A stretch of DNA of 64,000 nt, taken from positions 483,283 through 547,282 of the forward strand of contig NZ_JANFDA010000001.1 of the NCBI RefSeq assembly GCF_040493455.1. Reading direction: 5' to 3'. The stretch is from Winogradskyella sp. 3972H.M.0a.05. GTDB lineage: Bacteria; Bacteroidota; Bacteroidia; Flavobacteriales; Flavobacteriaceae. Made by a program: the position numbers and the translations under genes. The notes beneath the pieces were generated by a model. It was not told where the DNA came from, did no database searches, and worked only from the letters and a program-made list of their open reading frames with translations. Below, one piece after another: positions 26,729-32,549 of this stretch (the stretch's first letter is position 1; each line of letters opens with the position of its first letter).

Positions 26729-27362
26729 GGGAAAAATTAAATTTGGATTTCTAAAAAAAATAATAGCATATTTGTACCACAAATGATAAAAACAATAGTA
26801 CATAGAGCACCGATTTCGCTGAATTGCAAGCGAGATTACCAAGGAATGAGTGAATTATTCGCTTGGGAGAGGACGCTATGTGACTATTTTTAATCGTTTT
26901 TTGAGAATGAATTAAACCAAAAACTGAATATAGTTACAAGCGTCCAAGAAATTGGGCGCTTTTTTTATGAAAAAAATTGATAATATTTTGAAGATAAGTT
27001 TTAACATCTAAATAAAGGCACTTGAAAAGTAAGCAATTGGGAGACAGACTATTGCCAAATTACTTGAGAATCTGCGACTAAGCGGACAGGGATTCCTATG
27101 CTTGAAATTAAACATAATTAGTTGATAATCAATAAATTAAATTAAAATTTTTCTTGTGTAATTAAAATTTTCATTTCATATTTGCACCATCAAAAATTGA
27201 TAACAAAACAAGACGTGATAAAATATTTACAACATATGCCCCATACTCAATATGAGTTTTGCTCGCCGAAAATTTTTGGCGCAGTGAATAGTGAAGCCGA
27301 TTTAAAAATAACCGAAAGGGAGAAAAATAAATGTATATCAGTATAGGCATATATGATATATA

Positions 27363-27403
27363 AAAACAAAAGCATCTCCCAAAAAGAGATGCTTTTTTTA
27401 TGC
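27363..27403 (+). terminator. Rho-independent terminator in the ppc-to-tRNA intergenic region
   Basis: aagcatctc-ccaaaaa-gagatgctt hairpin followed by a T7 run. Confidence 0.6.
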
Positions 27404-27436: not shown

Positions 27437-27509
27437 TGACGTATAGCTTAGTCGGTAGAGCAGGGTGCTTTTAACACCAAGGTCGTGAGTTCGAATCTCG
27501 CTGCGTCAA
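27437..27509 (+). tRNA. tRNA-Lys (anticodon TTT)
   Basis: Manual cloverleaf: acceptor tgacgta/tgcgtca (U1:A72), D-arm gctt-agtcggtag-agc, anticodon loop cttttaa, T-arm cgtgagttcgaatctcgc. Confidence 0.8.
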
Positions 27510-27515
27510 CAAATT

Positions 27516-27588
27516 GGGGATATAGTTTACCAAGCCAAAACAGTGGGTTTGCAACTCGCAGTACGGAGTGTAAGTCTCCGTGTCTCCA
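27516..27588 (+). tRNA. degenerate tRNA-like gene (anticodon-position TGC, Ala-like); probable pseudogene
   Basis: Cloverleaf can be drawn (acceptor ggggata/tgtctcc, loop tttgcaa). The D-loop lacks GG, the T-loop is tgtaagt, and the anticodon stem has two G-U pairs. Confidence 0.4.
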
Positions 27589-27593
27589 CAAAA

Positions 27594-27665
27594 GATATTG
27601 TAGCTCAATGGTAGAGCAGGCGGCTGTTAACCGCCAGGTTGAAAGTTCGAGTCTTTCCAATATCG
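27594..27665 (+). tRNA. tRNA-Asn (GTT)
   Basis: Acceptor gatattg/caatatc, anticodon arm ggcgg-ctgttaa-ccgcc, T-arm ggttgaaagttcgagtcttt. Confidence 0.85.
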
Positions 27666-27668
27666 CTA

Positions 27669-27742
27669 GACAAGGTGGCTGAATGGTTAAAGCGGCAGTC
27701 TGCAAAACTGTTTTTTTATGAGTTCAAATCTCATCCTTGTCT
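27669..27742 (+). tRNA. tRNA-Cys (GCA)
   Basis: Acceptor gacaagg/ccttgtc, loop ctgcaaa, T-arm atgagttcaaatctcat. Unusual T6 run in the variable region. Confidence 0.75.
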
Positions 27743-27754
27743 CAAAAAAAATTA

Positions 27755-27897
27755 GGGAATGCGTCCAAGTTGGAGAGTGGAGCCAGTCTGACTAGAGCTT
27801 GCGACTGAGCGAAACCGATTTAAAACAATAGAAATGATTGAGTTAAAAACTGGTGCTTCGGTTGAATAGGTTCGAAATGCAGAGCATTCATGAGCAC
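27755..27897 (+). other. non-canonical tRNA-like gene A: type-II-like 5' part with an approximately 55-nt anticodon-loop insertion and the derived 3' module
   Basis: Acceptor-like gggaatg; D-stem tcc/gga with a 12-nt GG-containing loop. Anticodon stem ccagt (27783) pairs with actgg (27849) across 62 nt. The 3' end is aggttcgaaatgcagagcattcatgagcac. Confidence 0.4.
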
Positions 27898-27949
27898 AGC
27901 GATTCAAAAACTAAAATCAAGCGAACTAATCCTATGATTCCCACAACAA

Positions 27950-28021
27950 GCATCTATAGTGTAATTGGCAACATAGTAGATTTCCAATCTACAGTTTCGA
28001 GTTCGAGTCTCGGTAGGTGCT
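27950..28021 (+). tRNA. tRNA-Gly (TCC)
   Basis: Acceptor gcatcta/taggtgc, loop tttccaa, T-arm tcgagttcgagtctcgg. Confidence 0.85.
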
Positions 28022-28031
28022 CATAATACAC

Positions 28032-28103
28032 GCGCTTATGGTGTAATGGCTAGCATCTGAGTCTCCAAAACTTAGGGTTGAGGTTCAAGTCCTTATGGGC
28101 GCG
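28032..28103 (+). tRNA. tRNA-Trp (CCA)
   Basis: Acceptor gcgctta/tgggcgc, D-arm gtgt-aatggcta-gcat, loop ctccaaa, T-arm tgaggttcaagtcctta. Confidence 0.85.
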
Positions 28104-28110
28104 CAAATTA

Positions 28111-28240
28111 TATCTATGGTGTAATTGGATAGCACAAGAGATTTAGCTCACAGACTAATTATTATAAAATGTGGAGTTCCTGAATGCTTCGCATTTCTAA
28201 TCTCTAAGTCCGAGTTCGAAATGCTTTGCATTCATGAGTT
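28111..28240 (+). other. non-canonical tRNA-like gene B: tRNA 5' part with a 52-nt anticodon-loop insertion (possible mature loop tttctaa, Arg-TCT) and the derived 3' module
   Basis: D-arm gtgt-aattggata-gcac as in Trp/Gln. Anticodon stem agaga (28137) pairs with tctct (28201) across 59 nt. The 3' end is gagttcgaaatgctttgcattcatgagttc. Confidence 0.4.
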
Positions 28241-28292
28241 CTTATTTATCAAAATAATAATATGACGAACTAACCTTGGTAGATATACATCT

Positions 28293-28364
28293 GGTTCATT
28301 GGGGTAATGGATATCCTTCCCGACTGTCTCTCGGGAGATACGAGTTCGATTCTCGTATGAACCG
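28293..28364 (+). tRNA. tRNA-Asp (GTC)
   Basis: Acceptor ggttcat/atgaacc, loop ctgtctc, T-arm acgagttcgattctcgt. Confidence 0.85.
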
Positions 28365-28369
28365 CAACT

Positions 28370-28451
28370 GTGCTCTGTTACCATAAGATATGGTGCTGGG
28401 TTCTAAAAAGGGAAGTATAAGGGGCCATTTTCTTTACAGAGCACATTTTTT
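28370..28451 (+). terminator. terminator-like structured element: perfect 9-bp stem enclosing a 57-nt substructured loop, followed by a T6 run
   Basis: gtgctctgt...acagagcac then attttttaag. An internal hairpin ccata-aga-tatgg is present. Confidence 0.45.
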
Positions 28452-28466
28452 AAGAGATTATTCAAT

Positions 28467-28548
28467 GGAAGGGCAATTGGTGGTGGCCACAGTCTTGAAA
28501 ACTGTTCGGAGCTAACGACTCGTGTGGGTTCAACTCCCACCTCTTCCG
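28467..28548 (+). tRNA. tRNA-Ser (TGA), class II with variable arm
   Basis: Acceptor ggaaggg/ctcttcc, anticodon arm acagt-cttgaaa-actgt, variable arm about 18 nt, T-arm gtgggttcaactcccac. The D-arm is poorly defined. Confidence 0.65.
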
Positions 28549-28801
28549 CTACATGGAGGGTAGGCAAATACTGGTTCGTTGCGCTCGTTTGCTAAACAAG
28601 TCCGTGAGAAATCCGGTGAAGGTTCAAATGCGAAGCATTCACGAATACCTATTTATTGAATAAGTATTTAATGAGTAACTCCTTTATCCTCCGCAAATCT
28701 GGGAATAGAACAATTGGCTGTTTACTCGCTTTGGATGCGAGAGGTTGTAGAGCCTGTGCCGAACTAGATTCGGTATTCGAGTCCTACTTCTCAGACGAAA
28801 T

Positions 28802-28928
28802 GCTCCATTAGCATAGTGGTTTAGTGCATTCGGCTTTAACTCACTGACGCATATTTAGGAAATTGGTTTCGTTGAATTCGCAAACTCATTTCTACCGAAA
28901 GACAAGGGTTCGATTCCCTTATGGAGTA
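28802..28928 (+). tRNA. tRNA-like gene with a 54-nt insertion in the anticodon loop (mature loop could be ctttcta for Glu-TTC, or ctttaa-a for anticodon TTA)
   Basis: Acceptor gctccat/atggagt, D-arm gca-tagtggtttag-tgc. Anticodon stem ttcgg (28829) pairs with ccgaa (28895) across 61 nt. Normal T-arm aagggttcgattccctt. Confidence 0.5.
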
Positions 28929-28935
28929 CAAATTT

Positions 28936-29007
28936 TGAGGCATAGCTCAGTGGTAGAGCGTCACGCTTACATCGTGATTGTCATAGGTTCGATCCCTATT
29001 GCCTCAA
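28936..29007 (+). tRNA. tRNA-Val (TAC)
   Basis: Acceptor tgaggca/tgcctca (U1:A72), D-arm gctc-agtggtag-agcg, loop cttacat, T-arm ataggttcgatccctat. Confidence 0.85.
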
Positions 29008-29012
29008 CATAA

Positions 29013-29085
29013 TGAGATATAGCTTAACTGGTAGAGCGCCGCTCTGATAAGGTGGTAGGTTTAGGTTCAACTCCTAATATCTCAA
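29013..29085 (+). tRNA. tRNA-Ile (GAT)
   Basis: Acceptor tgagata/tatctca, loop ctgataa, T-arm ttaggttcaactcctaa. Confidence 0.85.
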
Positions 29086-29095
29086 CTAATAATAA

Positions 29096-29168
29096 TGAGA
29101 TGTAGCTTAATTGGTAGAGCATCGCTCTCATAAGGCGAAACGTCTAGGTTCGAGTCCTAGCATCTCAA
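29096..29168 (+). tRNA. tRNA with CAT anticodon (elongator Met or lysidine-Ile2; not initiator-like)
   Basis: Acceptor tgagatg/catctca, loop ctcataa. The anticodon stem lacks the 3 G-C pairs of an initiator. The body closely resembles the adjacent tRNA-Ile. Confidence 0.8.
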
Positions 29169-29174
29169 CAATTT

Positions 29175-29249
29175 ACAGGAATGGCGAAAATGGCAAACGC
29201 ACTCGACTTAGACTCGAGGTATCTGAGAGTTCGAATCTCTCTTCCTGTA
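29175..29249 (+). tRNA. class-I-shaped tRNA with Leu anticodon TAG (no long variable arm)
   Basis: Acceptor acaggaa/ttcctgt, D-arm gcg-aaaatggcaaa-cgc, perfect anticodon arm ctcga-cttagac-tcgag. Only 6 nt lie between the anticodon stem and the T-arm gagagttcgaatctctc. A73 is present. Confidence 0.6.
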
Positions 29250-29253
29250 CTAT

Positions 29254-29327
29254 GCTCCACTAGCCCAAATGGCAGAGGCATCAGTCTTAAACACTGAGTA
29301 GTCCAAGTTCGAATCTTGGGTGGAGTT
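29254..29327 (+). tRNA. class-I-shaped tRNA with Leu anticodon TAA (no long variable arm; U73)
   Basis: Acceptor gctccac/gtggagt, anticodon arm tcagt-cttaaac-actga, 5-nt variable loop, T-arm ccaagttcgaatcttgg. Confidence 0.6.
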
Positions 29328-29333
29328 CAACAA

Positions 29334-29410
29334 GCTCATGGTGTAATGGATAGCATTCAAGGCTACGGACTTTGAGGTATGGGTTCGAAATGCAAAGCAT
29401 TCACGAGCTC
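29334..29410 (+). other. non-canonical tRNA-like gene D: tRNA-Arg(ACG)-like body whose T-arm is replaced by the derived 3' module
   Basis: Acceptor gctcatg pairs with cacgagc. D-arm gtgt-aatggata-gcat, anticodon arm caagg-ctacgga-ctttg, then aggtatgggttcgaaatgcaaagcattcacgagctc. Confidence 0.45.
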
Positions 29411-29459
29411 AAATTTATCAAAATGATTATGAGGCGAGCTAGTCCTATTGAGCTTACAA

Positions 29460-29531
29460 TAACCTGTAGTGTAATGGTTAGCATTCAAGACTTTGACTCT
29501 TGAGGTAAAGGTTCAAATCCTTTCAGGTTAT
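29460..29531 (+). tRNA. tRNA-Gln (TTG)
   Basis: Acceptor taacctg/caggtta, D-arm gtgt-aatggtta-gcat, loop ctttgac, T-arm aaaggttcaaatccttt. Confidence 0.85.
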
Positions 29532-29533
29532 CT

Positions 29534-29606
29534 GGTGTCTATAGTGTAACGGCTCGCACGAGAGATTGTGGTACTCTAAGATTAGGTTCGACTCCTAATA
29601 GACACC
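29534..29606 (+). tRNA. tRNA-His (GTG) with encoded G-1 paired to C73
   Basis: G-1 then gtgtcta pairs with tagacac then C73. Loop ttgtggt, T-arm ttaggttcgactcctaa. Confidence 0.8.
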
Positions 29607-29612
29607 CAAAAT

Positions 29613-29685
29613 GGAGCAGTAGCAAAGTTGGTCAATGCAGCAGATTGAAGTTCTGACGATATAGGTTCGATTCCTGTCTGTTCCA
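29613..29685 (+). tRNA. tRNA-Phe (GAA)
   Basis: Acceptor ggagcag/ctgttcc, loop ttgaagt, T-arm ataggttcgattcctgt, A73. Confidence 0.8.
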
Positions 29686-29689
29686 CAAA

Positions 29690-30256
29690 TTTTCATGAAT
29701 TTTTAATTACGCAAAATCATTGCGTAATAGAAATTCACCTTTGTATCAACATTTACCGATAAAGGTAGAATTACGTTCATTGAAATTAAATGAAGTCAAA
29801 GTACTTCATTATAGAAAGAAATCGTCATTAGAAATAATGACGGGGCGGCTTATCGTCCTTAGATAAACTTGGCAACAAGGATAAATCTGCTTGCAGGCAC
29901 TGCGAGTGGAGACTGTTTTCTCTAGAGATCAGTACAGGTAAGCAAGCAACTAACATAAATCATAAAAAGCTAGGGGCAACCGCTGAAGCAAATTAGGATT
30001 TATAGCCAATATTTTTGGAGGCTTGAGGTGGAGACACCAACAGGAAAAGTTGTAGTAATAGGTTACGTATAGGTCATCCAACCTTATGGAGCGTGTTGCA
30101 GTATTAGAGGTACCCGACAAGAAATTGTTCGGTAGCTCAACATACCGTGTGCTGGGAGGCACACAAAGAGAAGGTTGGTATTTTGTAGGCCAAAATCTAC
30201 GGAGCCATTTCCGAAGCCCTTCTCTTAGGCCAGACGATAGTCTATCTCCAACAAAA
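29690..30256 (+). ncRNA. ORF-free structured RNA candidate (hairpin-dense, locally GC-enriched); identity unknown
   Basis: No ORF above about 115 aa and none with a plausible start or composition. Multiple perfect hairpins (ttacgcaa-aatc-attgcgtaa; cgtcatta-gaaa-taatgacg with a GNRA loop; gtag-gccaaaat-ctac; ccgacaag-aaatt-gttcgg). GC is well above the flanking sequence. Confidence 0.35.
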
Positions 30257-30831
30257 TGGGGATATAGCTCAAGTTTAGAGCATTGTATTTTTAACACAAA
30301 GGTTGACTTTATATCTTAAATGCAAAAGACTTCGGACATTACAGCAGCTAGTAGTTGCCTAAACCTATTGAAACATATAGGATGGTAGAGGTCGCAAACC
30401 TATACCATGTGGTGAACATTCTAGTAGGCCGCCTCAAGAGAGGACGCCTATGAATGGTGGGGGAGCCAACCCTCGTAATTGCAAAGCGTGGCCGTAGAGC
30501 CTCTATGCAAGCCAAGTCTAAGTCGCCGAACAGCTGTAATGTAATTAGGCATCGGACAAGTACGTGATTCCCTAAGCGATGGGAAGAGCGTGGAAAACCA
30601 AGGAAGGGCTACGGCTATAATCTTGGGAAAGTTTGTCTACAAGCGGAGGTATTCTCAGCACGCTTTTTTTAAAAATATCAAGCTGGTCTTGTTGCGTGTT
30701 TCTGTATAGCACCATTGTATAGAAGATTGCAGGGATGTATTATGCTTCTATATGCAACTAGACTTGAAGGTTTGGGTTTATCCAAAAAACTCCACCAAAG
30801 TTCAGTGTGGGTTCGAATCCCACTATCTCTA
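30257..30831 (+). other. split tRNA-like gene: intact 5' half (acceptor, D-arm, anticodon arm with loop tttttaa) separated by about 500 nt of structured sequence from a T-arm plus acceptor 3' half; either an intron-containing tRNA or two pseudogene fragments
   Basis: 5' half ggggatatagctcaagtttagagcattgtatttttaacacaa at 30257-30299. 3' half gtgggttcgaatcccac-tatctct-a at 30807-30831. The acceptor halves pair with 2 G-U. The intervening sequence is ORF-free and hairpin-rich, with an internal T7 run at about 30675. Confidence 0.35.
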
Positions 30832-30833
30832 AC

Positions 30834-30941
30834 GGGATATGGCGGAATGGTAGACGCACTAGATTTGAGGTCTAGCGGACAGATGACATTCTCAAAAAAT
30901 GTCTCTTTTAATGTTGCCGGTTCGACTCCGGTCATAAGCTC
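30834..30941 (+). other. degenerate Ser-like (TGA) tRNA-like sequence with an approximately 42-nt variable region
   Basis: D-arm gcg-gaatggtaga-cgc, perfect anticodon arm ctaga-tttgagg-tctag, T-arm ccggttcgactccgg. The acceptor pairs poorly. Confidence 0.35.
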
Positions 30942-30957
30942 GAGAGTAATCTCGCTG

Positions 30958-31025
30958 GCTTTTGTAACTCAATGGTAGAGTACTACGCTGTTAACGTAGC
31001 AGGTCATTATAGACCACTAAAGCCG
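30958..31025 (+). other. degenerate second Asn-like (GTT) tRNA-like sequence with an aberrant T-arm
   Basis: Acceptor ggctttt/taaagcc (6 bp), anticodon arm ctacg-ctgttaa-cgtag. T-arm reduced to ggtc-attata-gacc. Confidence 0.35.
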
Positions 31026-31451
31026 ACCATCTTTTAAAACTGGTCTCACAGCCTGTCACGCTGAAAAAATTGACAAAAAGTGTTGGTTGCCAATTGGCCT
31101 ATTGTATAATACTATTAGTGTTCAATAAAAGGCAATCTCAACATTACCTTGACCTGTTGATTTGTATTGCTCTAAGCAATGACTTTTAGCAGAACGATTA
31201 GATGACATTTTAGAACACCTACTTGTTCTAAAACAACTCTTAGAGAGCTGCGAAAAACTTATTGTAGCAAGCAATACTATGAATAGGTCCGTAATGAAGT
31301 GATGATTGGTAATCGCACTTTTTTAAAGAGAAATAAATTTTTAAAGATAAACTCAGATGCTAAAGTTACTTGTGCTTTAGCATTAGAGCAGGCATAGCCT
31401 CCGTTACAGGAATTGCCGCAAATTAATGTTTAATCATAAAAACTAAGAACA

Positions 31452-32549
31452 ATGAAACAAGTAAGAATTAATGCAGGAAAAGTTGGTTTGGTCTTCAAAA
31501 AAGGGGATTACCAAAAAGTATTGACGCAAGGTAAATACTGGTTAGGCTTTGGACAAGATGTTTATATCTATGACTTAGCCAAGACATTCCACGCTCCCAT
31601 AGCATTAGAGCTCTTAGTAAAGGATAAAACCTTAGAGGCTATGTTGGAGGTTGTTGAGGTAAAAGATAATGAACTGGTATTGGTGTTTGAAAACAACATT
31701 TTAAATACTGTATTATCTGCCGGAAGATATGTGTACTGGAAAGGTTTGGTAGAGCGCGAGTTTACAAGAGTAGACTTAAGCAAGATCGATATTACAGAAG
31801 ATATTGATAAAGCGTTATTCAGCAAGTATGAATTGAATAAGTACATCAGATCTTTTGAAGTCGCTACTCATGAAAAAGCAGTACTTATCATTGATGATGT
31901 GTACGAAAAAACACTTGGGCCAGGTATCTATCGTTTCTGGAGAAACGATACTTCAATTAAAATTGCAAAAGCAGATTTACGTCAATTACAATTAGAAATT
32001 GCAGGTCAGGAATTGTTGACTAAAGACAAGGCTGCTATTCGTATCAACTTTTACACTCAGTACAAAGTAACAGATATTGAAAAGGCACTTTTAGAGAACA
32101 AGGACTACGAAAAGCAATTGTACATTGGAATGCAATTAGTATTGCGTGCTTATGTAGGTACATATACTTTGGACGAACTTTTAGAACGTAAGGATAATAT
32201 TGCCGAGGCTGTATTAGAAGACGTAAAAGAGTTAGCTTCAAAGTTAGGTATCACAGTATTGAACACAGGTATTAGAGATGTAATCTTAACAGGTGAAATG
32301 AAAGACATCATGAACCAGGTACTTGTGGCTCAAAAGAAAGCCCAAGCTAATATCATTACTAGACGAGAAGAAACAGCTTCGACTCGTAGCTTGTTAAACA
32401 CAGCAAAGTTGATGGAAGAAAATGAAATGTTATACAAGTTGAAAGAGATGGAGTATGTTGAAAAAATTGCTGATAAGATTGGTGAAATTACAGTTTCTGG
32501 TCACGGAGGTGTAGTTGCACAATTGAAAGAGATTTTCTCTGGAAAATAA
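31452..32549 (+). CDS. SPFH/band-7 (stomatin/flotillin-like) domain protein with an unknown approximately 190-aa N-terminal domain; no TM helix
   Basis: The C-terminal approximately 170 aa is SPFH-like (AIRINFYTQYKV...NTGIRDVILTGEMKDIMNQVLVAQKKAQANII...). Confidence 0.65.
   Translation: MKQVRINAGKVGLVFKKGDYQKVLTQGKYWLGFGQDVYIYDLAKTFHAPIALELLVKDKTLEAMLEVVEVKDNELVLVFENNILNTVLSAGRYVYWKGLVEREFTRVDLSKIDITEDIDKALFSKYELNKYIRSFEVATHEKAVLIIDDVYEKTLGPGIYRFWRNDTSIKIAKADLRQLQLEIAGQELLTKDKAAIRINFYTQYKVTDIEKALLENKDYEKQLYIGMQLVLRAYVGTYTLDELLERKDNIAEAVLEDVKELASKLGITVLNTGIRDVILTGEMKDIMNQVLVAQKKAQANIITRREETASTRSLLNTAKLMEENEMLYKLKEMEYVEKIADKIGEITVSGHGGVVAQLKEIFSGK

What the first reader, a model, noticed from the sequence alone, without database searches (positions are those of the whole stretch)
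27437..31025. 3.6-kb tRNA gene array mixing about 15 canonical tRNAs with at least 9 non-canonical tRNA-like genes
About 24 tRNA or tRNA-like units are packed head-to-tail on one strand, with 3-12 nt spacers between many of them. Arrays this dense and irregular are typical of the tRNA array units described in some Firmicutes, Cyanobacteria and Actinobacteria and in phages. They are not typical of a core Bacteroidota chromosome. Every other unit fails at least one universal tRNA rule.
Basis: partly seen in the sequence, partly recalled or inferred. Interest (0 to 1): 0.8.

Follow-up and report, generated by a model that had tools for sequence, protein, structure and literature searches.

The report
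tRNA operon riddled with mobile mini-inserts
This is a conserved accessory operon of 22 tRNA genes plus a GOLLD-like giant RNA in a marine flavobacterium. Its odd "tRNA-like" units are mostly normal tRNA genes split by a previously undescribed ~55-base mobile hairpin element that lands in tRNA loops.

Summary
The array is real. There are 22 tRNA genes on the + strand (27437-29686): 14 pass ARAGORN defaults and 17 pass the Rfam threshold. The rest of the flagged span is not a row of tRNA genes. It holds a GOLLD-like RNA (~29770-30680) and a conserved tail of closed-acceptor tRNA mimics (30670-31060).

Most "non-canonical units" are ordinary array tRNAs (Tyr-like, Arg-TCT, Ser-GCT, Glu, Arg-ACG) interrupted by one or two copies of a 50-57-bp ORF-less element. 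The element has an invariant hairpin (AATGC-nnn-GCATT) and a second hairpin whose base shows covariation. It sits in the T-loop (59/60) in sense, or in the anticodon loop, usually antisense. Uninterrupted orthologues give exact boundaries, and excision in silico restores canonical tRNAs (51 of 77 cases).

The element occurs in both orientations. It also lies in group II introns and intergenic DNA of many Bacteroidota contigs, always after (G/C)AA. It is therefore a DNA-level mobile element, not a ribozyme.

Homologous arrays with the same gene order, upstream leader region and downstream SPFH gene occur in more than 40 Flavobacteriaceae species, so the array is a lineage feature, not a recent island.

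Whether the inserts are removed from transcripts is unresolved. Compensatory changes in interrupted genes suggest that many still work.

The parts
27212..27398 (+). Conserved 43-aa leader-like ORF (GTG 27212 to stop 27346) followed by an intrinsic terminator (27368-27398), directly upstream of the array. Possible attenuator.
   Evidence: The ORF has the same length, position and motif (..YLQH..SPK..) in 10 or more genera, and the terminator T-run lies about 50 nt after the stop. The terminator appears in the scan. The upstream region is conserved in about 45 loci.
27437..27743 (+). tRNA-Lys(TTT) 27437-27510, tRNA-Ala(TGC) 27516-27589 (odd D-arm and T-loop TGTAAGT, conserved in orthologues), tRNA-Asn(GTT) 27594-27666, tRNA-Cys(GCA) 27669-27743.
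   Evidence: Ala orthologues.
27755..27943 (+). Type II Tyr-like tRNA gene with two inserts: a degenerate subfamily-2 element in the anticodon loop (~27791-27846) and a T-loop element (27877-27929). Probably decaying: G7.G66 mismatch, and standard excision gives a GAA, not a GTA, anticodon.
   Evidence: Alignment to uninterrupted Tyr(GTA) of L004, L008, L012 and L016; nhmmer hit 27874-27929; subfamily-2 contexts.
27950..28104 (+). tRNA-Gly(TCC) 27950-28022 and tRNA-Trp(CCA) 28032-28104.
28110..28287 (+). tRNA-Arg(TCT) with two inserts: an antisense element in the anticodon loop (28143-28194, between positions 32 and 33) and a sense element in the T-loop (28221-28273, between positions 59 and 60).
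   Evidence: nhmmer hits 28197-28143 (-) at E 1e-7 and 28218-28273 (+) at E 2e-10. Orthologue alignment. After excision it folds as a canonical Arg(TCT) with 21 of 21 stem pairs.
28293..28365 (+). tRNA-Asp(GTC).
28366..28466 (+). About 95 nt with a long-range stem (TGTGCTCTGT...ACAGAGCACA) followed by a T-run. Nature unknown, and unique to this genome among the loci examined.
   Evidence: Sequence; no homologue in any locus.
28467..28549 (+). tRNA-Ser(TGA), type II, with a shortened D-arm.
   Evidence: Relaxed ARAGORN; Rfam tRNA-Sec model 38 bits; orthologue alignment.
28555..28693 (+). tRNA-Ser(GCT), type II, with a sense T-loop element (28628-28678).
   Evidence: excision gives Ser(gct).
28698..28790 (+). 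tRNA-Pro(TGG) with a different 25-nt insert (28751-28775, AGCCTGTGCCGAACTAGATTCGGTA) between G53 and T54.
   Evidence: The same insert sits in a Phe T-arm of L023.
28802..28928 (+). tRNA-Glu(TTC) with an antisense subfamily-2 element in the anticodon loop (28835-28888). The ARAGORN call 'tRNA-Stop(tta) with intron' is an artefact of where it placed the intron.
   Evidence: orthologues have the loop CTTTCTA; the reverse complement matches the subfamily-2 consensus.
28936..29328 (+). tRNA-Val(TAC), Ile(GAT), Met(CAT), Leu(TAG) and Leu(TAA). Both Leu genes are 75-76 nt and lack the long variable arm.
   Evidence: the same short Leu genes appear in most loci.
29332..29457 (+). tRNA-Arg(ACG) with a sense T-loop element (29390-29443).
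29460..29686 (+). tRNA-Gln(TTG), His(GTG) and Phe(GAA).
29770..30680 (+). GOLLD-like large RNA. The Rfam 3'-domain match is 30166-30664, and a tRNA-like 5' fragment lies at 30258-30317.
   Evidence: RF02032 at 130.4 bits over the full model, E 2.7e-35, below the gathering score of 150. Homologues in L057, L044, L043, L004 and L029 score 109-138 bits.
30670..31060 (+). Conserved post-Phe tail. A ~165-nt domain ends in a T-arm (30808-30824). The strand that follows pairs across a short loop with the strand preceding a D-arm, forming a closed acceptor stem. Further tRNA-like modules follow (30838-30937, 30958-31024), then a terminal hairpin. This is a YrlA-like tRNA mimic.
   Evidence: Conserved in 25 loci. 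The closed 7-bp stem covaries: 12 of 25 are perfect and there are 21 distinct sequences. Weak YrlA hits. Rfam tRNA hit of 36.9 bits at 30958-31024.
31452..32549 (+). SPFH/Band-7 protein gene, always directly downstream of the array on the same strand.
   Evidence: Pfam PF01145, E 4e-30. tblastn finds it next to the array in at least 22 loci at 41-85% identity.

Best explanation
The window holds a chromosomal accessory tRNA operon (a long 'L-array') that is conserved across marine Flavobacteriaceae. It has 22 tRNA genes for 19 amino acids, transcribed in one direction. Upstream lies a conserved leader ORF plus terminator. Downstream lie a GOLLD-like RNA, a tail of closed-acceptor tRNA mimics and an SPFH gene.

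The irregular units are array tRNA genes that were hit by a family of 50-57-bp, ORF-less elements. Each element has two hairpins on one strand: P3 (AATGC-nnn-GCATT, often the GCGAAGC mini-hairpin) and P4 (Y-GA-NN...NN-GA-R). The elements integrate at the DNA level right after (G/C)AA. In tRNA genes that sequence lies in the 7-nt T-loop (sense strand, position 59/60) or in the anticodon loop (mostly the antisense strand, 32/33; sense 37/38 in Ser-TGA).

Shown here: the clean insertion boundaries, both orientations, the covarying hairpins, presence or absence between orthologues and paralogues, and the same element in group II introns and intergenic DNA.

Inferred: movement goes through single-stranded DNA and a trans-acting enzyme, in the style of REP/RAYT or IS200/IS605. 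This rests on the one-strand hairpins, the lack of terminal inverted repeats, and no duplication beyond a possible AA.

Also inferred: many interrupted genes stay functional. T-loop inserts leave the UUCGA T-loop core intact and may be tolerated or trimmed. Anticodon-loop inserts would have to be removed, either from the RNA or by precise DNA excision.
For: Array and identities.

The insert is real and non-random: the motif occurs 5 times in the window against 0.15 expected. A genome-collection scan gave 62 loci, nearly all marine Bacteroidota, where about 1 hit is my own by-hand estimate of the chance expectation for a 20-base pattern.

Clean insertion: the T-stem 5' strand finds its 5/5 complement right after the element in about 50 cases. 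Uninterrupted orthologues define the boundaries. Excision in silico gives a canonical tRNA in 51 of 77 cases: 42 at tRNA position 57-60 in sense and 9 at position 31-33 in antisense.

Structure: the P4 base pairs covary (CG 27 / UA 16; AU 24 / GC 14; UA 29 / CG 13), and 0 of 500 shuffles reach the observed score. P3 shows compensatory variants.

DNA-level mobility: the same element appears as its reverse complement in the anticodon loops of Gly, Trp, Arg, Gln and Glu. Paralogous arrays in one genome differ by presence or absence of the element (L008 vs L047). Two copies of one group II intron differ only by the element. About 76 complete copies lie in non-tRNA sites of metagenome contigs.

Host genes are kept: six Arg(TCT) genes with a similar antisense insert from four genera all fold canonically, with 19-21 of 21 stem pairs and compensatory changes.

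Lineage feature: synteny of the leader region, the array, the tail and the SPFH gene.
Against: No transposase or other mobilising gene was found near any copy, and no long autonomous version turned up, so the mechanism of movement is pure inference.

The orientation bias could reflect an RNA-level role rather than strand-specific insertion. T-loop copies are all sense (at least 9 unbiased copies against 0 antisense). Group II intron copies are all sense. Intergenic copies are co-oriented with the downstream ORF about 27 to 12.

The genome scan was anchored on the sense T-loop motif, so its primary hits are biased towards that class.

Some interrupted genes are clearly decaying: the Leu-TAA 5' halves in L002, L047 and L023, and the window Tyr-like gene, whose anticodon after standard excision would be GAA. 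So 'still functional' does not hold for all of them.

No expression data were available.
Confidence: 0.72

Rival explanations
1. The inserts are true tRNA introns. They are transcribed with the tRNA and then cut out and the halves re-joined by host proteins (an unknown endonuclease plus an RtcB-type ligase), giving functional tRNAs. DNA mobility only explains how they spread. This overlaps with the best explanation and sharpens its unresolved step.
For: The exons stay canonical after excision. Compensatory changes occur in the acceptor and anticodon stems of six Arg(TCT) genes that share a similar anticodon-loop insert across four genera. A gene can carry two inserts and still keep perfect stems (window Arg-TCT). 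No antisense insert occurs at T-loop position 53/54 although the TTCGAA target is palindromic, which suggests selection on what the transcript can tolerate. The two ends of the element pair with each other, bringing the junctions together.
Against: No splicing enzyme is known in Bacteria for such inserts. The junctions do not form a bulge-helix-bulge (inspection). The element works as a unit in both orientations, so the RNA differs (tandem G.A pairs become U.C/C.U). The same element sits in intergenic DNA and group II introns, where no splicing is needed. Some hosts decay. Standard excision of the Tyr-like hosts gives a wrong anticodon.
Confidence: 0.3
2. The interrupted genes are simply dead. 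The array is redundant with housekeeping tRNAs, so it is a safe landing pad where parasitic elements accumulate. The intact-looking exons only reflect recent or repeated insertion at the same hot-spot.
For: The element is a general repeat found in many non-tRNA sites. Presence or absence varies even between close relatives and paralogous arrays. Several hosts have lost their 5' halves or carry deleted elements (L002, L042, L047, L059, L023). The window Tyr-like gene has two inserts, a stem mismatch and a degenerate element end.
Against: Nine of nine single-insert anticodon-loop hosts and 42 T-loop hosts are fully canonical after excision. Arg(TCT) exons of Aquimarina and Kordia differ by about 19% (by-eye count of the sequences) yet keep 20-21 of 21 stem pairs through compensatory changes, while their inserts look orthologous. 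The array itself is conserved in order and context over many genera.
Confidence: 0.25
3. One reading: the irregular units are a distinct class of non-canonical tRNA-like genes with their own, possibly non-translational, functions, carried on a horizontally acquired island.
For: Some units are truly non-standard and conserved as such: Ala with an odd T-loop, Leu without the long variable arm, Glu with U37, and the closed-acceptor mimics in the tail.
Against: Five of the irregular units become standard tRNAs once a mobile insert is removed. The 3' part is GOLLD. The array is syntenic in many Flavobacteriaceae and flanked by housekeeping genes.
Confidence: 0.07
4. The inserts are small self-cleaving or self-splicing ribozymes, either hammerhead-like or degenerate group I introns.
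For: Free-standing copies in Cytophagales read (C)UGAUGAG-hairpin-CGAAA-hairpin-U, which resembles a hammerhead core. The element also contains a tandem G.A motif.
Against: The GGATGAGAACC segment is just an inverted copy of a T-arm. tRNA-embedded copies lack CUGAUGA. No ribozyme or intron family matches in Rfam even at E up to 10. At 50-57 nt the element is far too small for a group I intron. It also occurs in both orientations.
Confidence: 0.03

Closest known systems
[quoted passage not shown]
   Same: About 20-40 tRNA genes lie head to tail on one strand and cover nearly all amino acids. They are redundant with housekeeping tRNAs and include some odd or pseudo tRNAs. Such arrays are already reported in Bacteroidetes (PMC8421152).
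   Different: Here the array sits at a conserved chromosomal locus with its own leader ORF and terminator, a tRNA-mimic tail and an SPFH gene. Many member genes are interrupted by a mobile insert, which I did not find described for any array.
GOLLD RNA (Rfam RF02032) in tRNA arrays and phages
   Same: A large structured RNA lies inside or next to a tRNA array with a tRNA-like piece inside it, as in Mycobacterium arrays and phages (PMC6582537, PMC12286853). The full-length model match has E 1e-28 to 1e-36.
   Different: All six flavobacterial copies score 109-138 bits, below the curated cut-off of 150, so they form a divergent subgroup. The copy is chromosomal, with no phage genes nearby.
Archaeal non-canonical (bulge-helix-bulge) tRNA introns, including T-loop positions such as 59/60
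   Same: Short ORF-less inserts sit at several positions of tRNA genes, including the T-loop. Up to two occur per gene. They are sporadic among orthologues, and precise removal restores a tRNA.
   Different: The host is a bacterium. No bulge-helix-bulge can be drawn at the junctions. The insert has a conserved sequence, occurs in both orientations and also outside tRNA genes.
REP elements / RAYT and IS200/IS605-derived miniature elements (PATEs)
   Same: These are small, ORF-less elements with hairpins on one strand. They lack terminal inverted repeats, insert next to a short specific sequence without a clear target duplication, are mostly intergenic with an orientation bias, and show seamless presence/absence.
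   Different: No RAYT or TnpA gene was linked here. The hairpin touches the left junction, leaving no room for a guide sequence. The preference for loops of tRNA and intron genes is not a known REP trait. Both strands of one gene can be hit.
Group I introns in bacterial tRNA anticodon loops
   Same: They interrupt bacterial tRNA genes in the anticodon loop and are sporadically distributed.
   Different: Group I introns are 200 nt or longer and have a catalytic core. Here the insert is 50-57 nt, has no Rfam intron match, and is mostly in the T-loop or antisense.
YrlA (bacterial Y RNA-like tRNA mimic, RF02553)
   Same: The tail has a T-arm, a D-arm and an acceptor-like stem closed by a loop. Weak YrlA matches reach 26-38 bits.
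   Different: The scores are far below the cut-off of 69. No Ro-binding stem was identified. Several mimic modules are chained together, preceded by a 165-nt conserved domain.

Membership tests
Long tRNA gene array (L-array) | At least 20 tRNA genes on one strand with short spacers, covering most amino acids | tested here: met
   22 genes for 19 amino acids in 27437-29686.
Long tRNA gene array (L-array) | Transcribed as one inducible operon, with tRNAs that are aminoacylated | not testable with these tools
   Only a conserved promoter-like box, a leader ORF and a terminator upstream were seen.
GOLLD RNA (RF02032) | Match to the covariance model at or above the gathering score of 150 bits | tested here: not met
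   130.4 bits over the full model, E 2.7e-35; five homologues score 109-138 bits. It is a clear relative that falls below the curated cut-off.
GOLLD RNA (RF02032) | Lies next to or inside a tRNA cluster and contains a tRNA-like segment | tested here: met
   It directly follows tRNA-Phe, and a tRNA-like hit lies at 30258-30317. The literature describes the same arrangement.
GOLLD RNA (RF02032) | Forms a 14-mer nanocage | not testable with these tools
   Known for env-38 (PMC12286853).
Group I intron | Catalytic core (P3-P9), length of about 200 nt or more, Rfam Intron_gpI match | tested here: not met
   The inserts are 50-57 nt and no intron family matches at E up to 10.
Hammerhead ribozyme | CUGAUGA ... 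GAAA core around three stems | tested here: not met
   tRNA-embedded copies lack CUGAUGA. The look-alike in the Cytophagales units is an inverted T-arm copy. No Rfam hit.
Archaeal-type BHB tRNA intron | Two 3-nt bulges carrying the splice sites, separated by a 4-bp helix | tested here: not met
   By inspection of the aligned junctions and the folds, the 3' side would need a 4-5 nt bulge and the P3 hairpin interrupts the 5' side. No formal BHB search was run.
Archaeal-type BHB tRNA intron | An EndA-type splicing endonuclease in the genome | not tested
   Only 64 kb of this genome was available.
REP/RAYT or IS200/IS605-type single-strand elements | Hairpins on one strand, no terminal inverted repeats, insertion beside a short specific sequence, seamless empty sites | tested here: met
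   P3 and P4 hairpins with covariation. The ends are not inverted repeats. The element always follows (G/C)AA. Empty and filled pairs are seamless.
REP/RAYT or IS200/IS605-type single-strand elements | A cognate HUH (Y1) transposase in the same genome | not tested
   None lies next to any copy examined, and whole genomes could not be scanned.
REP/RAYT or IS200/IS605-type single-strand elements | Strand bias relative to replication | not testable with these tools
   The replication direction is unknown. One gene (window Arg-TCT) carries copies on both strands.
Classical MITE | Terminal inverted repeats and a target-site duplication | tested here: not met
   The left end AAATGC and the right end GAGCTAA are not inverted repeats. 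At most a 2-bp AA ambiguity is present.
YrlA Y RNA-like | Rfam RF02553 match at 69 bits or more, plus a Ro-binding stem | tested here: not met
   26-38 bits only. The closed acceptor stem with T- and D-arms is present.

The most novel reading that the evidence does not exclude
Marine Bacteroidota have a class of tRNA introns of a kind not known in Bacteria. These would be ~55-nt, ORF-less, DNA-mobile hairpin elements in T-loops and anticodon loops. They would be removed from pre-tRNAs by a protein cut-and-ligate pathway (for example an unknown endonuclease plus RtcB), or, for T-loop copies, kept as an extra arm on a working tRNA. Either case would be the first example of its kind in a bacterium.
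Probability: 0.3. Interest if true: 0.9.

Novelty: new variant of a known kind. Interest (0 to 1): 0.72.

Why it matters
Long tRNA arrays and GOLLD RNA are both puzzles with no settled function. This locus ties them to a fixed set of neighbours that can now be tested together in culturable marine flavobacteria: a leader ORF with a terminator, a tRNA-mimic tail and an SPFH protein.

The more surprising result is the insert family. Bacterial tRNA genes are thought to be interrupted only by self-splicing group I introns in the anticodon loop. Here dozens of otherwise perfect tRNA genes carry a tiny mobile hairpin element in the T-loop or anticodon loop, sometimes two per gene, and their stems keep evolving by compensatory change.

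If these genes are expressed, bacteria must either splice them by an unknown route or use tRNAs with an extra arm at the elbow. If they are not, the element is a newly recognised small repeat of Bacteroidota that targets loops of structured-RNA genes.

There is also a practical point. Standard tRNA finders miss or mis-call these genes. One example is the false 'suppressor tRNA with intron' call for what is really tRNA-Glu.

Tried and rejected
1. Hammerhead-like ribozyme. The Cytophagales free-standing copies suggested it. It was rejected because the CUGAUGAG-like piece is an inverted T-arm copy and is absent from tRNA-embedded copies. Rfam is silent.

2. Bulge-helix-bulge junctions. None could be drawn, although this was checked by inspection only.

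3. Group I intron. The size is wrong and there is no Rfam match.

4. Phage origin. A viral-contig scan gave one real copy, in a non-tRNA site. A search of the phage collection with the GOLLD and tail region found only a tRNA-like 70 nt. There are no phage genes in the window.

5. Riboswitch or 5'-UTR motif. The genes downstream of intergenic copies are unrelated to one another.

6. RNase P RNA context for some metagenome copies. Rfam showed that these copies lie in group II introns instead.

7. Mini-ORF inside the element (ATG CGA AGC ATT CAC GAA). I judged this a coincidence of the hairpin sequence and did not pursue it.

8. Suppressor tRNA. The ARAGORN 'Stop(tta)' call is explained as Glu(TTC).

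9. Exact-match look-up of the PEP carboxylase to name the organism found nothing. The taxon was inferred from the closest loci: Wocania for SPFH (85%), Mangrovimonas for PEPC (74% over aa 350-877).

10. Ten literature searches found no description of the insert, including one for its core sequence. The library lacks most subscription journals, and PMC7549688 was not held.

11. The sigma-70 promoter scan was uninformative for this phylum.

Full report
**Observation.** ARAGORN with defaults finds 14 tRNA genes, all on the + strand, between 27437 and 29686. Rfam at its curated threshold finds 17 tRNA matches. These add a tRNA at 27516-27588, a 127-nt match at 28802-28928 and a weak one at 30958-31024. 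No tRNA lies anywhere else in the 64-kb window.

The window is a bacterial chromosome of about 36% G+C. Ordinary genes lie on both strands around the array: ferritin, PEP carboxylase, an SPFH protein, a LolA-like protein and an MMPL transporter. There are no phage genes. So a dense array exists at the stated place. The stated span, however, mixes three different things.

**The 3' third is not tRNA genes.** With relaxed thresholds Rfam reports GOLLD RNA (RF02032) at 30166-30664. The match covers the full model at 130 bits with E 2.7e-35, just below the curated cut-off of 150. The same RNA, from about 29770 to 30680, follows tRNA-Phe in five other flavobacterial loci. There it scores 109-138 bits.

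GOLLD inside or beside tRNA arrays, with a tRNA-like piece in its linker, is already known from Mycobacterium arrays and phages (PMC6582537, PMC12286853).

Downstream of GOLLD, 30670-31060 is conserved in 25 loci, whether or not GOLLD is present. It consists of:
- a ~165-nt domain ending in a T-arm;
- a 7-nt strand that pairs across a 3-25-nt loop with the strand preceding a D-arm (12 of 25 perfect, 21 different sequences, so it covaries);
- further T-arm modules.

This closed-acceptor layout is that of tRNA mimics such as YrlA. YrlA gives only weak matches here.

**What the irregular units in 27437-29686 are.** Four units share the string TTCGAA-ATGCnnnGCATTCAYGA inside what should be the T-loop. 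The motif occurs 5 times in the window against 0.15 expected. A scan of one genome per species for GTTCRAAATGCNNNGCATTCAYGA returned 62 loci. Nearly all are marine Flavobacteriia and Cytophagia, whereas I estimate by hand about one chance match for a 20-base pattern.

In these loci ARAGORN finds arrays with the same gene order as the window. This allowed each irregular unit to be aligned with an uninterrupted orthologue. The result is clean.
- The Tyr-like gene (27755-27943) and Arg(TCT) (28110-28287) each carry two inserts.
- Ser(GCT) (28555-28693), Glu(TTC) (28802-28928) and Arg(ACG) (29332-29457) carry one each.
- Pro(TGG) carries a different 25-nt insert.

The ARAGORN call of a 'stop-codon tRNA with intron' is an artefact. 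The orthologues show that the loop is CTTTCTA, that is, Glu.

Ala (odd T-loop), the two 75-76-nt Leu genes without a long variable arm, and Glu with U37 are non-standard. They are conserved as such in other arrays. Altogether there are 22 tRNA genes for 19 amino acids. Thr is missing.

**Anatomy of the insert.** T-loop copies are 50-57 nt and lie between positions 59 and 60. The junction can slide over AA. In about 50 independent cases the T-stem 5' strand meets its perfect complement right after the element.

The element has a hairpin P3 (AATGC-nnn-GCATT), the dinucleotide CA, a second hairpin P4 and a tail (C)TAA. The base of P4 reads Y-GA-N1N2 ... N2'N1'-GA-R. On 46 distinct copies the three Watson-Crick pairs around the tandem G.A covary (CG 27 / UA 16; AU 24 / GC 14; UA 29 / CG 13). 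None of 500 shuffles reaches the observed score. P3 is invariant in that set, but elsewhere it shows compensatory variants, such as AATAC/GTATT and the longer hairpins of a second subfamily.

**It moves as DNA.** An HMM census of the loci and direct pattern searches show the same element as its reverse complement in the anticodon loops of Gly, Trp, Arg(TCT), Arg(TCG), Gln and Glu, between positions 32 and 33 or 34. It is in sense orientation in the anticodon loop of Ser(TGA), at 37/38.

Read in the element's own frame, every copy follows (G/C)AA: TTCGAA, TTGGAA, TTAGAA, GTCAA, CTTGAA, TAGAA.

Cutting the element out in silico gives a tRNA that ARAGORN accepts in 51 of 77 cases. Of these, 42 are sense with the junction at position 57-60 and 9 are antisense at position 31-33. 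Most failures are genes with two inserts.

Other evidence points the same way.
- Paralogous arrays in one Aquimarina genome differ by presence or absence of the element (L008 vs L047).
- Close relatives differ too (window vs L057).
- A metagenome scan showed that the element is not tRNA-specific. About 76 complete copies lie in intergenic DNA next to unrelated genes, and several lie inside group II introns.
- Two copies of one intron on the same contig differ only by the element: CTGAAGAA[...]AGCGAG versus CTGAAGAAAGCGAG.

Both orientations, seamless empty sites and many kinds of host make this a mobile DNA element. Its most common P3 contains GCGAAGC, which I recall as an unusually stable DNA mini-hairpin (my own knowledge, Hirao and co-workers). 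One-strand hairpins, no inverted terminal repeats and no clear duplication recall REP/RAYT and IS200/IS605-type elements. No transposase was found, so this part is inference.

**Are the interrupted genes alive?**

For:
- Nearly all single-insert hosts are perfect after excision.
- Six Arg(TCT) genes from four genera carry a recognisably similar antisense insert. They keep 19-21 of 21 stem pairs with compensatory changes at 2-71, 4-69, 28-42 and 29-41.
- The window's Arg(TCT) has two inserts and 21 of 21 pairs.
- T-loop inserts leave the five-base UUCGA core untouched.
- No antisense copy was seen at 53/54 although TTCGAA is palindromic (at least 9 unbiased sense copies against 0). This looks like selection on the transcript.

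Against:
- Several Leu(TAA) hosts have lost their 5' halves or part of the element.
- Standard excision of the Tyr-like hosts gives a GAA anticodon on a Tyr body.
- The window's Tyr-like gene has a stem mismatch.
- No bacterial enzyme is known that would remove such inserts.

I therefore leave RNA-level removal at about one chance in three and plain decay at about one in four. The rest falls to tolerated T-loop arms or reversible DNA excision.

**Rejected ideas.** A hammerhead reading of the free-standing Cytophagales copies failed. Those units are tandem repeats placed after an intact tRNA-Thr or tRNA-Val. Each consists of an inverted partial T-arm, a spacer, GGTTCGAA plus the element, a copy of the tRNA 3' end and a terminator. 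No ribozyme or intron family matches in Rfam. The junctions do not form a bulge-helix-bulge. Phage collections do not carry the array or the element, apart from one non-tRNA copy.

**Context and how the locus probably works.** The ~700 nt upstream of the array is conserved in about 45 loci. It holds, in order:
- a hairpin motif;
- a promoter-like box;
- a 39-47-aa ORF with a conserved pattern (..YLQH..SPK..), which in the window runs from 27212 to 27346;
- an intrinsic terminator about 50 nt after the stop codon.

This layout is what a leader-peptide attenuator would look like. It would fit the reported induction of the Anabaena array by translation stress (PMC8421152). It is untested.

Downstream, an SPFH/Band-7 gene follows on the same strand in at least 22 loci. 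In the window and in Mangrovimonas, PEP carboxylase lies upstream. Ferritin also lies near the array in the window, Mangrovimonas and one Winogradskyella locus. The array is thus a vertically kept lineage feature, not a fresh island.

I infer that it serves as a back-up tRNA set expressed on demand, as proposed for other L-arrays. The roles of GOLLD, the mimic tail and the SPFH protein are unknown.

**Novelty.** The array, GOLLD and their linkage are known kinds. The flavobacterial module and the tRNA-loop inserts appear to be undescribed. Ten literature searches found nothing, including one for the element's core sequence. The library does not hold most subscription journals.

Noticed in passing
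window 27029-27398: The region upstream of the array is conserved in about 45 loci. It holds a hairpin motif (CAATTGGGAGACAG..ATCCGT..ACGGACAGGAATTC, 27029-27100), a promoter-like box (~27160-27190), a conserved 43-aa ORF (27212-27346) and an intrinsic terminator (27368-27398). It looks like a leader-peptide attenuator for the array.
   Followed up: partly
window 31452-32549: An SPFH/Band-7 gene lies directly downstream of the array on the same strand in at least 22 loci from many genera (41-85% identity). It has no PADLOC or specific NCBIfam match. SPFH proteins form cages and GOLLD forms a nanocage. The link is unexplained.
   Followed up: partly
window 30670-31060; 25 loci: The post-Phe tail is conserved. 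A 165-nt domain is followed by chained tRNA mimics whose acceptor stem is closed by a loop and covaries. It is YrlA-like but far below the Rfam cut-off, and may be an undescribed RNA.
   Followed up: partly
window 28751-28775; L023 3375-3399 (-): A second, 25-nt insert (AGCCTGTGCCGRACTnGATTCGGTA, with a CCGAA/TTCGG hairpin) lies between G53 and T54 of tRNA-Pro here and of a tRNA-Phe in Hyunsoonleella. It may be another small mobile insert.
   Followed up: partly
window 28366-28466: A ~95-nt segment between tRNA-Asp and tRNA-Ser has a 10-bp long-range stem followed by a T-run. It has no homologue in any fetched locus and may be an internal terminator or a small RNA.
   Followed up: partly
L026 4070-4640; L005 6560-6730 (-); L039 6560-6650 (-): In Cytophagales the element is not inside a tRNA. 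One to four tandem units follow an intact tRNA-Thr or tRNA-Val. Each unit has an inverted partial T-arm, a spacer, GGTTCGAA plus the element, an exact copy of that tRNA's 3' end, and a terminator. Their origin and role are unknown.
   Followed up: partly
L122 788-1011 vs 11024-11196; L129, L086, L102: The element also sits inside group II introns, in sense orientation. One contig carries the same intron both with and without it.
   Followed up: partly
window 29175-29328, 28802-28928, 27516-27589: The array tRNAs have family-wide oddities that are conserved across genera: Leu(TAG) and Leu(TAA) of 75-76 nt without a long variable arm, Glu(TTC) with U at position 37, and Ala(TGC) with T-loop TGTAAGT and an unusual D-arm.
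   Followed up: partly
L057 2900-2979; L004 117-192: Flavo-1 RNA (RF01705, above its cut-off) lies between the array tail and the SPFH gene in two loci. No match was found at that place in the window.
   Followed up: no
L002, L020, L042, L009, L050, L022, L032, L054: Type II 'Tyr-like' array genes in eight genera carry a subfamily-2 insert such that standard excision leaves the loop CTGAAAA (anticodon GAA) instead of CTGTAAA. The anticodon arms of Ser(TGA) and Tyr share CAGTCT..AAAACTG flanks, so gene conversion between them may have spread the insert.
   Followed up: partly
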